NCBI GenBank assembly: GCA_951406725.2
Contig: OX597814.1
Location: 9,920,001 to 9,984,000, forward strand
Source: Octopus vulgaris
Taxonomy: Eukaryota
Direction of reading: 5' to 3'
Length of the DNA: 64,000 nucleotides
The translations under genes and the position numbers were made by a program. Position 1 is the stretch's first letter. The number at the start of each line of letters is the position of its first letter. This document shows, in pieces, positions 1-59,945 of this stretch. Under the pieces are notes generated by a model that searched no databases, was not told the origin of the DNA, and saw nothing but the letters and a program-made list of their open reading frames with translations.

Positions 1-845
1 TTGAAACTTCGTATACTGGTAGAATGTGTCAAAAGTAAACTTAATTGTAAACCAGAATGAAAACGGAATTGTAACTTCTAAGTTTAACATTGTTTAATAA
101 TTAGAATTTTAACCAATGGTATTCCGTCTTTCGGCTTCATATTATTTACTCCGTCTCGACCACCAATTTGGTGACGTAGTAAACATATGGTATGTAAACA
201 AAACAATAACGATGAAATTTTTTACTCGGTGTATGTGTATATGTATGAATGTATGTATGTATGAATGTATGTATGTGTGTATATATATCTATGTATGTGT
301 GTGTATGTATGTGTGTGTATGTATGTATGTATGGCCGATTCGGTGTTTAGTTTTTTCGAGTGAATACTCGGTGTATGTGTATCTGTATGTATGTGTGTGT
401 ATGTATCTATGTATGTATGTGTGTGTATGTATGTGTGTGTGTGTATGTATCTATGTATGTATGTGTGTGTATGTATGTGTGTGTGTGTGTGTGTGTGTAT
501 CTATGTGTGTGTGTGTGTCACACATGTATGTATGGCCGATTCAGTGTTTAGTTTTTTCGAGTGAATACTCGGTGTATGTGTATCTGTATGTATGTGTGTG
601 TGTGTGTGTATGTATCTATGTATGTTAGCCTCAAATGTGCACAGTTGCCTACGTCACAAAACTGCTTTCTACGTCACACTAACAGAATGCAGTAACGTAT
701 TAAATATGAAAACAAGCAATCTCATTGGTTAAAATTCGCAGTTTTAATCTACGATTAAAGTCATAAAATAGATTTTTCTCAAATAAACTAGTTCCAACCT
801 GTGTCTTGTTTTGAAACACTGTACCAACATACGAAGTTTCAAATT
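1..845. mobile_element. Foldback/MITE-like element with inverted arms, interior filled by (TG/TATG)n and a ~70 bp duplicated unit
   Basis: TTGAAACTTCGTATACTGGTA (1-21) is the imperfect reverse complement of TACCAACATACGAAGTTTCAA (~822-842). GAATTTTAACCAATG (~104-118) is inverted at CATTGGTTAAAATTC (~723-737). The left end probably lies outside the window. Confidence 0.55.
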
Positions 846-1321: not shown

Positions 1322-1575
1322 AATAATAATAACATCGAAAAATACCTTAGGAATGAGAACCCAGGTTCGAAATTTCCCCAAGACACCTGAAGAAGGCTGG
1401 AGGGTCTATCAACTGAAGAACAAACAAAATAAGGACAAATATCCGACAAATATAAATAATTTAAATAATGGACAGACATGCACCATTCAAAACAGATCTA
1501 TCCATAACAACATCTACCTGACGCTATGCATTACAGAAAAGGTGATTAAAGAACCTGGTATGGATAGAACCTGAT
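880..1575 (+). pseudogene. Degenerate L1/Tx1-like LINE reverse transcriptase fragment, split by an insertion
   Basis: Hand translation gives NFRPVALQSADLKILA (~1005-1052; cf. the L1-clade NYRPISLLNxDYKILA motif). After the insertion it continues QTCTIQNRSIHNNIYL (cf. QxGFxxGRSIxDNI). Stops and frameshifts are present. Confidence 0.65.
1114..1471 (+). mobile_element. tRNA-headed SINE-like element with an inverted 5' segment and 13-bp target site duplication
   Basis: A box TGGCGTAGTGG (~1212) and B box GAGTTCGATTCC (~1255). ACAGACATGCACC is repeated at 1101-1113 and 1472-1484. 1157-1203 is an inverted copy of the element's own tail and head. Confidence 0.75.
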
Positions 1576-7726: not shown

Positions 7727-7858
7727 TAATAAAAAGAATTCCAACCTTGTCTGATTTTCACGTTTTATTTACAATCTTATAATGATATATTATAAGATAA
7801 TATATTATAATTGAATAAAATAAAATGAAATAGTAGAATGTTAAATATTCATTCTGAT

Positions 7859-7903
7859 TGAACTAGTACTTTCATGCATTGAATTCTGCAATCTTCGGGT
7901 TCA
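7859..7903 (-). ncRNA. Minimal type I hammerhead ribozyme motif (Penelope pLTR type)
   Basis: tgaac-CCGAAGA-T-TGCA gaattcaa TGCA-T-GAAA-GTAC-TA-gttca: perfect 5-bp helix I and palindromic helix III AGTACT. Core variant U4C. Confidence 0.65.
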
Positions 7904-8397
7904 TGTAGTAGTGTTGACAGTCATGCTTCACAATTTTTGACTGTAGCAAGATGAGTGATTCTGTGCTATAAATACAGCTGGGTAGGCTCCAGAGTGCTAG
8001 GTTTTGCAAACTGTATTCTGACCAATCAGTGTGTAGTATCACTCAATTACTTAAGCTGATTGGTTGGTTGAGCTGATTGGTTTAGGCATCACGCTTTGTT
8101 GGACAGGTCAAGAGTCCTGTATCTTGACCCTGGCCGAAGCAGCAATTGTTGGGTTATTTTTAGAAATGTTGTAAATATCCTTTGTCAGAGATTTTTATAT
8201 TTTTATATTTCAATTGTCATCATCATCATTGTCAGCACCTTAATTATTGTTGCTAGTGGTGATGGTGGTGGCAATAGAACTTTTAACCCTAAATAAGATA
8301 ATTTTCCTGCTATCTTCGTCTTGATCACCTTTAGTATTGTTGTTGTTGTTAGTGGTCATGGTCGTAGCAGTGGAAGTAATACCTCTAAGTATTATTA

Positions 8398-8763
8398 TTA
8401 TTGCTTATTTAGCTTGGGTTCGAATTTATCAATAAAATTCTTTTCTCTGATTTTCCTCTCGATTTCACTTGGGCTGTGTAATTTGTAGAATGGAAATATT
8501 ATATATATTTTCCGACCACATGTTGCTAGGTGGTTACTCAAAGGTATCTGACGGACCTCTGGGTCTCTAATCTGTTGCCGGTGTACACGTGAGCGTTCTA
8601 ATAGTGCGTTTCCCGTCTGACCTACATATATTTCTTCACAATTTGGGCATTTGATGCAGTAAATTAAATTTCTGCTTTTGCAGTTCATATTCGCGTTTGT
8701 GAATATTTTCCCGGTTTTTGTGTTTATATATTGACCGGTATGTATGAATTGGCATGTGCCACA
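8398..8763 (-). pseudogene. Penelope-like GIY-YIG endonuclease C-terminal fragment
   Basis: The open frame extends upstream of the annotated ATG: [50 protein letters not shown]...RVHRQQI...NHL...REKNFIDKFEPKLN. This matches the PLE-type IY..C..C...YVGQT, H..H, E and N pattern. Confidence 0.9.
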
Positions 8764-8892: not shown

Positions 8893-8970
8893 TATGTATG
8901 TATATAAATTTAAATATATATGGCTCTAACCACTGAGCCATGTGACTTCCCTATATGTATACATATATAC

Positions 8971-9012
<42 letters not shown>

Positions 9013-9029
9013 ATACATATAGGGAAGTC

Positions 9030-9355
9030 ACATGGCTCAGCGGTTAGAGCATCTGGGCTCACAATCCGGAATCATAAGACAGTGGATCCGATTCCCGGAC
9101 TGGGCTGTGTGTTGTGTTCTTAAGCATCATACTTTATTCCACGTTGCTCCAGTTCACTCAGCTGGAGAAATGTGTTGCGACGTCACTGGTGCCAAGATGT
9201 ATCAGTCTTTGTCTTTCCCTTGGATAACATCGGTGGCGTGCAGCGGAGAGGCTGGTATGCATGGGCAAATGCTGGTCTTCCACAAAAAAACCTGCTTGGA
9301 CTGGTAACTCTAGTGCAATCCCACGGTCATTCATATCCGAAGGGGGTCTTTACCC
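9030..9355 (+). mobile_element. tRNA-derived SINE, diverged (related to 26035-26285)
   Basis: TGGCTCAGCGGTTAGAG A box, GATCCGATTCCC B-box-like motif, and TTGTGTTCTT...CACTCAGCTGG shared with the 26035 copy. Confidence 0.65.
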
Positions 9356-51689: not shown

Positions 51690-51694
<5 letters not shown>

Positions 51695-52122
51695 GCAGTA
51701 ATATATGTCTGGAAGATCCTGGAAGGAATTGTGCCAAATTTTGGCATTGTAAGCTACACCAATGCTAGAACGGGACGACACTGCATAGTGCCAAAGATCC
51801 CAGCAATGCCATCACGCTTCAGGACCAGCTTCTGCAACAGCCTGGGTTTCAAGGGCCCACAGCTTTTTAATATTCTCCCAAAGAGTCTGAGGAACTTGCA
51901 CAAAGTAGATGTAGCGGTTTTTAAATCAAAGCTGGACATCTTCCTGTCAAGAGTCCCAGATGAACCTACCTCACGGCAAGAGGTGCAAATGAGAGTAGCT
52001 GTATCAAACTCCATTCTTCACCAAGTGCCACATATTAGACGAGGTTCGTCGCAATAACAGTGTAGCACAAAACGGCGGTGCATCAGCATGGCCGCAGCTC
52101 TGAGCTGAAACTAGAAAAAAAA
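51690..52122 (+). mobile_element. 3' end of a CR1-group LINE (ORF2 C-terminus, short 3' UTR, A-tail)
   Basis: [13 protein letters not shown]...RTGRHC...NSLGFKGPQLFNILPKSLRN...FKSKLDIFLSRVPDEP, a typical WN.LP / FK..LD LINE terminus. Stop at 52057. Confidence 0.8.
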
Positions 52123-52127
52123 ATTAT

Positions 52128-53008
52128 ATATATCATATAAATAATATATGCATATATACATACATATATGTACATACCTACATCTATATGTATATATACA
52201 TGCGTGTATGGCTATAGGACATTAAAAAAAACGTTGAACACAATGAGAAACGAAAGCATAAAAACAAAAACATGGAAACGAACTCTTTTTTTCAAACAAC
52301 GAAACACAGAGTACAAGACATACAACACAAAGAATAATCTCCTTCTTCAGTTGTCCCTGTTTCGTCTACTCCGCATTTCGAAGGTAAGGACAAGACGCGA
52401 CTTCGTTGAAACAGTCCTACCCGCAAAGCAAATTAAATAAAATTTGGGATTTTTTGCGGAGGGGTAAAAGTGGTAACAAGAACAGGACAGTTAGAACAAA
52501 AAGGCAGTAGAAACAGTAAAAGACAGAACAAAGAGAATAACACTGTAAAAACAAACGATGAGGGTTGTTAAGTCAAGACGATGGAAAAATTATTTTGAAC
52601 GCATTAAAGAGACAGCTTATGAGAGACAGGATAAGCCGTCTTGTCTTGGTGAAGATAGCAGTTGGAAAGATAGCTTCCCTCTGATTACGTGTCAGTGACG
52701 AGAGAGTCGAGGAGGAGGAGGAGTAATCGAAAGGAAACGGTAAATGGGAGAGGAGAAGAATAGGGAAGGGTGGGTGAGAAAACCAGAAAGGATGAAGAAC
52801 AAGAGAGGGAGAGAGAAAGACAGAGGAGAGTTAGTAAAGTTGAAGAGTGCGCATCATTATTAAGATAAAACTTACTTGGAAAAGAATGTGTGGCGTTCGA
52901 TCATATAATAATATAAATAATATATAAATATATGCATATATACATACATATATGTACATACCTACATCTATATGTATATATACATGCATGTATGGGTACA
53001 GGACGTCA
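52128..53008 (-). mobile_element. Family D non-autonomous element with ~95 bp terminal direct repeats and a scrambled hammerhead
   Basis: ATGCATATATACATACATATATGTACATACCTACATCTATATG...AGGAC is present at ~52147-52220 and ~52932-53005. Homologous inverted partial copy at 59570-59945. Confidence 0.75.
52339..52400 (-). ncRNA. Candidate non-circularly permuted hammerhead ribozyme
   Basis: Minus strand: TCGCG-TC-TTGTCC-ttac-CTTC-GAAA-TGCGG-(13 nt)-GGGACAA-CTGAAGA-A-GGAG. Confidence 0.72.
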
Positions 53009-53148
53009 AAGACTGATGCGACTCTACCATGTACTAGTCTCTCTCTCCTCCTTTCGTGTACTCTCTTCTTTTCTCAAATTCTTTTTTCTCCCCTTCTTTC
53101 GTTTTTTATCTCTCATCATTTCTCGAATTCTTGTTTTCGCCCCTTCAG

Positions 53149-59475: not shown

Positions 59476-59569
59476 TATATATATATTTTGTTTTTTTTTC
59501 GTACTTGTAATTTTATTCTGTATTTTTATTTTTTGCATTTTTATTTTGTATTTTATTTTGTAATTTTAT

Positions 59570-59945
59570 TTGTATCGTTTTTACGTCCTGGTTTTGTCAC
59601 ATGTTTAACTTTCCTTGTTTTTACCCCCCTGCGAAGTAATTTTATTTAATTCCTTCGCAGGAAGGACTAGTTCCACGAGTCGTGTTCTGTCCTCACCTTC
59701 GAAACACGCTGGAGTTGAACTAGGGACAGCTGATGAAGGGGATTTTTCCTTGTGTAGTTTGTCTTTGTTTTTTTTCGTTTAGGTCCGTGTCCACGTTTGT
59801 TTTTACGTTTTCGTTTCTCGTTGAGTTCTACGTCTATTTGTGGTGTCCTGTACTCACGTATATATATTTATATATGCAGGTATATATACATGTAGATGTA
59901 GGTACGTACATATATGTATGTATGTATGCATATATTTTATTTATT
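59570..59945 (+). mobile_element. Family D element, 5'-truncated, ending at (TA)n
   Basis: TTTTCGTTTCTC.TTG.GTTC.ACG and ATGTAGATGTAGGTACGTACATATATGTATG are reverse complements of 52150-52260. Confidence 0.75.
59681..59741 (+). ncRNA. Candidate non-circularly permuted hammerhead ribozyme
   Basis: CGTG-TT-CTGTCC-tcac-CTTC-GAAA-CACG-(14 nt)-GGGACAG-CTGATGA-A-GGGG. Confidence 0.72.

What the first reader, a model, noticed from the sequence alone, without database searches (positions are those of the whole stretch)
52128..53008. Family D: ~880 bp non-coding ribozyme-bearing element with terminal direct repeats (retrozyme/Penelope-parasite-like)
Seen: no ORF, ~95 bp direct repeats at both ends (unit ~780 bp), the scrambled HHR ~120-180 nt upstream of the 3' repeat, and a GTAAGT donor-like motif near the 5' end on the minus strand (~52871-52876). 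A second, 5'-truncated copy ends in (TA)n at ~59945. Established: Penelope-like elements and animal non-LTR retrozymes occur as partial tandems and use HHRs to process their RNA. Inference: this is a non-autonomous retroelement whose RNA is cut to unit length, possibly circularised, and mobilised by a Penelope RT/GIY-YIG such as the one at 8398-8763.
Basis: partly seen in the sequence, partly recalled or inferred. Interest (0 to 1): 0.78.

Follow-up and report, generated by a model that had tools for sequence, protein, structure and literature searches.

The report
Split-core hammerhead in Penelope-type mobile repeat
This is one of thousands of copies of a non-coding mobile repeat whose RNA is predicted to fold into a self-cutting hammerhead wired in an order I could not find described, and many copies begin just after the predicted cut, which suggests the cut happens in living cells; the same wiring appears to be present in Naiad retrotransposons, which were reported to lack hammerheads.

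Summary
The element is a non-coding Penelope-type retroelement with a 784-nt unit. Its terminal repeats are a partial tandem, and the genome has over 5,900 exact motif copies. All hammerhead core parts are present, in the non-circular site–GAAA–CUGAnGA order. Covariation favours a further twist: stem II's 5' strand lies upstream, and two extra helices sit between A9 and G10.1 ('split-C'). Eckert 2023 excluded that layout by assumption and found site–GAAA–CUGAnGA hammerheads only in metatranscriptomes. Copy 5' ends are about 9-fold enriched in the 22 nt after the predicted cut (17 of 50 copies). Tandem units within one insertion are near-identical, which fits copying from a circle. By eye, 17 of 32 published Naiad 3' ends carry non-circular hammerheads, 9 of them split-C. 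This would explain why Naiads were reported to lack canonical ones. Cutting and circles are untested, and this copy has private mismatches in two helices. The proposed partner at 8398-8763 is a fragment with no reverse transcriptase, and the mobilising enzyme is unresolved. Earlier scan notes on other genomes mention a permuted Penelope hammerhead and a core-opened phage hammerhead (unchecked).

The parts
52122..53010 (-). Whole insertion: a 104-nt 5'-truncated end of one unit followed by one 784-nt unit (partial tandem), non-coding
52907..53010 (-). 5' terminal repeat, the end of the upstream partial unit (pseudo-LTR-like)
   Evidence: 95 matches to the 3' repeat
52864..52902 (-). About 40-nt 'tail', present at the 3' end of 14 of 58 related loci; contains the donor-like GTAAGT at 52870-52875
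52460..52464 (-). P4 5' strand; predicted to pair with 52339-52343
52421..52459 (-). P5 hairpin, inserted with P4 between A9 and G10.1
   Evidence: 4 of 7 pairs change on both sides; appears in the MFE fold
52416..52420 (-). Stem II 5' strand, displaced upstream; this copy has a private change at 52419
52408..52414 (-). P0 5' strand (stem I-II interaction helix); pairs with 52357-52363
   Evidence: (6 of 7 pairs change on both sides)
52388..52399 (-). Block S: stem III 3' strand, GUC site, stem I 3' strand; predicted cut between 52394 and 52393
52372..52384 (-). Block G: stem II 3' strand, GAAA, stem III 5' strand; a 3-nt linker at 52385-52387 joins stem I to stem II
52344..52363 (-). P0 3' strand, stem I 5' strand and the CUGAAGA core
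52339..52343 (-). P4 3' strand directly after A9; private change at 52340
52122..52226 (-). 3' terminal repeat; ends in a TA run inside the A/T-rich end of a LINE-like fragment
59490..59945 (+). Second, 5'-truncated copy of another subfamily; ribozyme at 59624-59741, with compensatory changes against copy 1 in stems I, III, P0 and P5; followed by (TA)n

Best explanation
This is a non-coding mobile repeat that is likely copied back into TA microsatellites by a Penelope-type reverse transcriptase, and its RNA is predicted to cut itself with a rewired hammerhead. Shown: copy number, partial tandems, variable 5' ends, fixed 3' ends in (TA)n, the optional tail, the order of the core blocks, and covarying helices. 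Inferred from covariation: the chain runs P4'-P5-II(5')-P0-site-I(3')-II(3')-GAAA-III-P0'-I(5')-CUGAnGA-P4, so the non-circular SGC/CSG class is opened between A9 and G10.1. Inferred from copy ends: part of the RNA pool is cut at that site in vivo, and reverse transcription, which starts about 250 or 290 nt downstream, runs off at the cut end. Inferred from arrays: unit-length pieces are likely ligated into circles of about 0.8 kb and copied round more than once. Inferred: the ribozyme came from a Naiad-type 3' end, and today's copies most likely borrow the enzyme of a live Neptune-like family, because no intact Naiad was found.
For: 5,912 exact pattern hits against 13 for the reversed control; a sister family gives most of another 3,464 against 26. 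In 42 copies, 90.9% of cells pair (shuffles 82.2%, 0 of 500 as high; slid controls 34-49%), with double-sided changes in stem I (5 of 6 pairs), III (3 of 5), P0 (6 of 7) and P5 (4 of 7). The site base is C, U or A and never G in 42 of 42, although it was not part of the search pattern. With the sister family added (33 rows), upstream stem II pairs 95% with 3 of 5 pairs double-changed. A strict descriptor finds 42 split-C hits in family loci, 7 in Naiad loci, and 0 in three shuffles and in 400 kb of random genome. 5' ends in a sample picked by a motif about 200 nt downstream: 17 of 50 at risk end at 0..+21 (0.019 per nt), against 0.0020 downstream and 0.0017 upstream; Poisson P 6e-12, symmetric windows P 0.007. 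Young subfamily: 53 of 58 insertions end at +242..256 and 28 of 58 hold 2-4 motif copies. Segments within an array are identical in 33 of 40 pairs, against 462 of 3,111 between arrays. Naiad-type loci here carry RT motifs upstream of the same ribozyme layout, and one has GIY-YIG before RT. Published Naiad ends read by eye: 9 split-C, 7 CSG and 1 SGC of 32.
Against: Cleavage was not assayed. The 0..+21 window was chosen after seeing the data; only its lower edge was predicted. 33 of 50 copies read through the cut, and in the youngest subfamily only about 5 of 58 ends fall near it. In the window copy's subfamily A13 is the majority base in only 60% of 29 copies, and the core is no more conserved than other columns (0.94 against 0.96), so broken ribozymes also spread. 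Stem II and P4 covariation inside this genome rests on one family split, and pairs with a double change were not above shuffles there (10 against 9.3). A weaker plain-SGC stem II can also be drawn (96% paired, half G-U). Both window copies fail the strict split-C descriptor because of private changes. The element shows no DNA similarity to Naiad or Neptune UTRs apart from nested insertions. A Penelope hammerhead was not needed for insertion in vitro (PMC11167929).
Confidence: 0.72

Rival explanations
1. Same element, but the active fold is a plain type-SGC hammerhead: stem II forms with the G-run after CUGAnGA (one bulged A), and the upstream pairing with P4 and P5 is an off state or a folding aid.
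For: That stem pairs in 96% of cells in family D, and three of its pairs persist in the sister family. SGC is a validated fold (PMC10085705). One spider Naiad looks like plain SGC by eye.
Against: Across both families it pairs in 76% of cells, below a slid control (81%), and leans on G-U. Its median duplex energy is -3.1 against -4.6 kcal/mol, weaker in 29 of 33 rows, and it would cost P4 (-7.9). It cannot be drawn in five Naiad ends where the upstream stem II is perfect (by eye).
Confidence: 0.13
2. The fold is real but no longer cuts. It is an inherited structure where reverse transcriptase stalls or a protein binds, and stalling explains the pile-up of ends.
For: A13 variants spread in one subfamily. 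Two thirds of copies read through, and the pile-up is weak in the youngest subfamily. Rfam sees nothing.
Against: The excess stops at the predicted cut (17 ends after it against 3 in the 22 nt before it). Several copies start on the first base after it (L103, L111, L112). There is no pile-up at the base of the long P5 hairpin. The NUH rule is kept while the base varies.
Confidence: 0.1
3. The ribozyme cuts, but there is no circle. Multi-unit insertions come from linear read-through RNA of existing tandem arrays or from local DNA duplication.
For: No RNA circle was observed. Near-identical units would also follow from a homogeneous source array or a recent duplication. Penelope elements are transcribed as tandems (PMC11167929).
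Against: Arrays start at arbitrary phase yet share the fixed 3' end of monomers. Arrays differ from each other (median 11 mismatches per unit) while units inside one differ by 0-2. This rival concerns only the circle step and is compatible with the split-C fold.
Confidence: 0.3

Closest known systems
Type-SGC and type-CSG hammerheads (Eckert et al. 2023, PMC10085705; parts 1-6 of 8 read, supplement searched by six terms)
   Same: Site, GAAA and CUGAnGA blocks in the non-circular order; a linker of about 3 nt from stem I to stem II; an extra helix joining the free sides of stems I and II; a doubly pseudoknotted core.
   Different: Here stem II's 5' strand is not next to CUGAnGA, an adjacency that the paper assumes. 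P4 and P5 are inserted between A9 and G10.1. [quoted passage not shown]
Naiad Penelope-like elements (Craig et al. 2021, PMC8557442; passages, metadata sheet and 32 consensus 3' ends seen)
   Same: (TA)n targets, partial tandems, inverted 5' pieces, a 30-40 nt tail; by eye, the same ribozyme layout at the 3' ends of octopus, squid, coral, hydrozoan, cubozoan, ctenophore, acanthocephalan and ostracod Naiads.
   Different: No ORF and no alignable DNA. The paper reports no canonical hammerhead in Naiads and marks eight as 'half core'. Naiads in this genome are decayed while this family is still young.
Animal non-LTR retrozymes (Cervera and de la Pena 2020, PMC7229834, passages; Li et al. 2026 preprint 10.64898/2026.07.22.740005, parts 1-3 of 5)
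   Same: Non-coding head-to-tail units with one hammerhead per unit; proposed circular RNA and Penelope mobilisation.
   Different: Those carry type I hammerheads and are mostly about 300 nt (51-972 nt in the preprint). This unit is 780-840 nt, mostly dispersed and 5'-truncated, with a non-circular ribozyme that type I searches would miss.
Poseidon PAc of Anolis (Frangieh et al. 2024, PMC11167929; parts 1-2 of 4)
   Same: Internal start of reverse transcription at two sites, which gives an optional tail; AT-rich targets.
   Different: No reads ended at that hammerhead's site, whereas here genomic copy ends pile up at the predicted cut.

Membership tests
Hammerhead ribozyme | CUGAnGA and GAAA core | tested here: met
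   Present in both window copies; majority base at all 11 core positions in BLAST-picked copies, but A13 only 60% in the window copy's subfamily.
Hammerhead ribozyme | NUH site with A15.1-U16.1 | tested here: met
   U in 42 of 42; H is C 17, U 15, A 10, G 0.
Hammerhead ribozyme | Stems I, II and III around the core | tested here: met
   Covariation in I and III and in II across two families.
Hammerhead ribozyme | Site-specific self-cleavage | not testable with these tools
   Only indirect: 5' ends of copies pile up after the site.
Type-SGC hammerhead (Eckert 2023) | Order site, GAAA, CUGAnGA with a short I-II linker | tested here: met
   linker mostly 3-4 nt.
Type-SGC hammerhead (Eckert 2023) | Helix joining the free sides of stems I and II | tested here: met
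   P0, 6 of 7 pairs double-changed.
Type-SGC hammerhead (Eckert 2023) | Stem II 5' strand directly after CUGAnGA | tested here: not met
   Upstream strand 95% paired with three double-changed pairs; the adjacent strand 76%, below a slid control. A weak adjacent pairing is not fully excluded.
Non-LTR retrozyme | Non-coding head-to-tail units, one ribozyme per unit | tested here: met
   (most spacings 804-844 nt).
Non-LTR retrozyme | Type I hammerhead | tested here: not met
   No GAAA follows the core; the order is non-circular.
Non-LTR retrozyme | Unit-length circular RNA | not testable with these tools
   Only contigs were served; array homogeneity is indirect support.
Penelope-mobilised element | Partial tandems, variable 5' truncation, inverted 5' pieces, optional 30-40 nt tail | tested here: met
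   tail in 14 of 58 loci.
Penelope-mobilised element | Microsatellite target, no TIR or fixed TSD | tested here: met
   (TA)n or (TATC)n flanks; none seen at this copy; flanks were judged by eye.
Penelope-mobilised element | Sequence homology to the ends of an autonomous partner | tested here: not met
   No UTR homology to 30 GIY-YIG loci or 40 Naiad-type loci beyond nested insertions; only these samples were tested.
Naiad | ORF with N-terminal GIY-YIG and C-terminal RT | tested here: not met
   No ORF; only the ribozyme layout and the target are shared.

The most novel reading that the evidence does not exclude
Hammerheads have a seventh natural wiring, opened inside the core by a two-helix insert. 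Together with CSG and SGC forms it is the 'missing' ribozyme of Naiad retrotransposons across at least six animal phyla. In this genome it drives a still-active circular-RNA parasite that outlived its Naiad donor by switching to another Penelope enzyme, and the cut is recorded in thousands of genomic 5' ends.
Probability: 0.5. Interest if true: 0.9.

Novelty: new variant of a known kind. Interest (0 to 1): 0.8.

Why it matters
Non-circularly permuted RNAs were known only from uncultured sequence, and the CSG form from two sequences. This puts them in animal genomes at high copy number and adds a layout that the published block model ruled out. It would resolve why Naiads seemed to lack hammerheads and show that standard type I-III searches miss a whole class. 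It also offers a genomic read-out for the open question of whether Penelope ribozymes cut the RNA that gets copied. The constructs are about 140 nt and can be tested in one transcription gel.

Tried and rejected
Rfam: no hammerhead in the element; only simple-repeat miRNA noise among the listed matches. The repeat finder was swamped by microsatellites. A canonical type I, II or III reading fails: no GAAA follows the core, and the second GAAA in the G-C linker is not kept across subfamilies. RNA evidence: no RNA holder listed. Contigs of 4 runs of guessed type cover parts of the element but cannot show ends or circles. GTAAGT as a splice donor stays untested, since that part had no cover. The partner at 8398-8763 was rejected. 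Live Naiad: none among 123 and 140 matches; longest open frames 292 and 325 aa (best candidates only). A protein search with a Naiad piece found nothing (weak evidence). A count of inverted junctions was void because the references held inverted pieces. A too-long pattern gave 14 hits and was not used for counts. DNA-transposon reading: no TIR or TSD. Six family-D motifs were not found in the Naiad supplement (lines are wrapped and the file is cut). Not in print as far as searched: (open-access library only). The bioRxiv supplements and the alignment files of Eckert 2023 were not seen in full and could bear on novelty.

Full report
Observation. The element reads on the minus strand from 53010 to about 52122. 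Its ends are direct repeats with 95 matches over 105/104 nt and a period of 784. It has no credible ORF. A second copy of another subfamily lies at about 59490-59945 on the plus strand. The host genome is 2.80 Gb in 227 contigs. I infer an octopus from the near-identity of its Naiad copies to the published Naiad_Ovul end.

Family. A 401-nt query gave 5,365 candidates, of which 40 were scored; the 39 other than the window copy are 88-92% identical. A pattern of block G followed by block C gave 5,912 exact hits against 13 for the reversed control. A second pattern gave 3,464 against 26, mostly a sister family with the same tail. Three of 40 random 10-kb stretches hold a copy. Copies have variable 5' ends, microsatellite flanks, inverted 5' pieces and an optional tail of about 40 nt (14 of 58 loci). 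These match the Penelope-type features described in PMC8557442 and PMC11167929. The terminal repeat is the 5'-truncated end of a preceding unit, not an LTR.

Ribozyme. The blocks come in the order site, GAAA, CUGAnGA, which is type SGC in the naming of Eckert et al. 2023. I aligned 42 of the 47 sampled copies with an intact upstream part, leaving out three with internal deletions and two near-duplicates. The six-helix model pairs 90.9% of cells against 82.2% in shuffles and 34-49% when slid. Double-sided changes occur in stems I, III, P0 and P5. The site base varies among C, U and A and is never G. Stem II and P4 were fixed by my search pattern in that set, so I added 15 sister-family copies to 18 family copies. 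The upstream stem II then pairs 95% with three double-changed pairs, and P4 pairs 80%. The adjacent alternative pairs 76%, below one slid control. P4, P5 and stem II follow each other with no unpaired base, so the insert replaces the A9-G10.1 link. That a single extra base is tolerated there in a viroid hammerhead is recalled; I saw only the title of that paper. Passages of Perreault 2011, Forgia 2023 and PMC13725137 showed no such helix insert. This copy has private changes in stem II and P4 and may be impaired.

Footprint of cutting. Among 96 pattern-picked copies, 26 end within 12 nt upstream of block G, where the cut lies at 10-11 nt; two of these are internal deletions. To avoid selecting on the ribozyme I picked copies by a motif about 200 nt downstream (4,710 hits). 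I used the first 30 loci and 40 more stretches from the first 100 listed places, skipping seven places already held, several inverted clusters and the last few places. Of 73 hits, six ending in the microsatellite-like part were set aside, and several ends were corrected by eye. Of the 67 left, 17 end at +22..170, 17 of 50 at 0..+21, and 5 of 33 at -100..-1. The rates are 0.0020, 0.019 and 0.0017 per nt. The window width was chosen afterwards; the lower edge was predicted. Against this, 33 of 50 read through, the youngest subfamily shows only about 5 of 58 ends near the cut, and A13 variants spread in the window copy's subfamily.

Arrays. In the youngest subfamily (241 motif hits), 53 of 58 insertions end at +242..256 and 28 of 58 hold two to four motif copies. 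Full units inside an array differ by 0-2 bases; between arrays the median is 11 (the 29 units include overlapping loci). This fits repeated copying of one circular unit and shows very recent activity. Read-through of a uniform source array is not excluded.

Naiad link. Craig et al. state that Naiads lack canonical hammerheads and mark eight as 'half core'. I read by eye the last 600 or so bases of 32 of 54 Naiad consensus sequences; record identity was inferred from file order, and these sequences were not run through any tool. Nine show the split-C layout (Obim, Ovul, Esco, 4_Dst, Bfor, Amil, 2_Movir, Plae, 3_Chem; Esco and Bfor are weaker). Seven show CSG (six nematode Naiads and Smim) and one shows SGC with a U3-A8 core (Sdum). 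Two look twister-like, four are unclear and nine showed nothing. In this genome the Naiad-type motif has 464 hits and 0 controls. It lies downstream of RT motifs, and one locus has GIY-YIG before RT.

Partner. The fragment at 8407-8763 is a C-terminal GIY-YIG piece with no RT and a type-I-like hammerhead. Naiads here are decayed. A Neptune-like family with many 781-aa open frames and copies up to 98% identical ends in (TA)n; the clade name rests on the C-terminal EN with a cysteine linker described in PMC8557442. Family copies occur in 9 of 49 Penelope loci (205 kb) against 3 of 40 random stretches (400 kb), with one head-to-head junction to each clade (L241, L478). Shared targets could explain this. 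My odds for today's enzyme: Neptune-like 0.5, undetected Naiad 0.3, other 0.2.

Verdict. This is a real, active, non-autonomous Penelope-type element that works like a retrozyme but fails the type I criterion. Its ribozyme works like an SGC/CSG hammerhead but fails the block C criterion, which makes it a new variant. I found no paper describing it in nine searches. Unchecked scan notes on other genomes point in similar directions; none exist for this genome or sequence. Cleavage, circles and the partner need bench tests.

Noticed in passing
window 1340-1410 (+): Remnant of another repeat with a CUGAAGA core, a stem II start and an upstream GAAA; probably a damaged canonical type I hammerhead of a different family.
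   Followed up: no
window 7843-8763 (-): 3' fragment of a Neptune-like element: open GIY-YIG frame (PF01541, E 1e-6) and a type-I-like hammerhead with a palindromic stem III and a C-for-U change in the core.
   Followed up: partly
window 51692-52120 (+): 3' end of a LINE-like ORF (121 aa, no Pfam hit; CR1/L2-like from recall) into whose A/T-rich end the element inserted.
   Followed up: partly
L236:2650-2720 and L233: The young 781-aa Neptune-like family has a minimal type-I-like hammerhead with a U3-A8 core, and tandem repeats with CCAAT-like boxes in its 3' UTR.
   Followed up: no
L433 near 1500 (-): A possible third split-C family with different P4 and stem II strands.
   Followed up: no
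L241:1130 and L478:2717: Inverted family copies joined head-to-head to 5'-truncated Neptune-like and Naiad pieces; possibly single chimeric insertion events.
   Followed up: partly
PMC8557442 supplement, ends of Naiad-4_Chem and Naiad-1_Movir: Twister-like motifs by eye instead of a hammerhead; Naiads may swap ribozyme classes. The crustacean Naiads (1-3_Dst, Ppla) have a core with an unresolved fold.
   Followed up: no
window 52330-52343 (-): The strand after the core can also form a local hairpin in most subfamilies; it would compete with P4 and might act as an off state.
   Followed up: partly
run X12 (organism B): Contigs of a second organism label cover the ribozyme region with 4-21 differences, so the family is probably not limited to one species.
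   Followed up: no
window 8925-9048: A long perfect-looking hairpin around a TA/TG microsatellite (weak mir-5014 match, below the gathering score); likely an inverted repeat of a mobile element.
   Followed up: no
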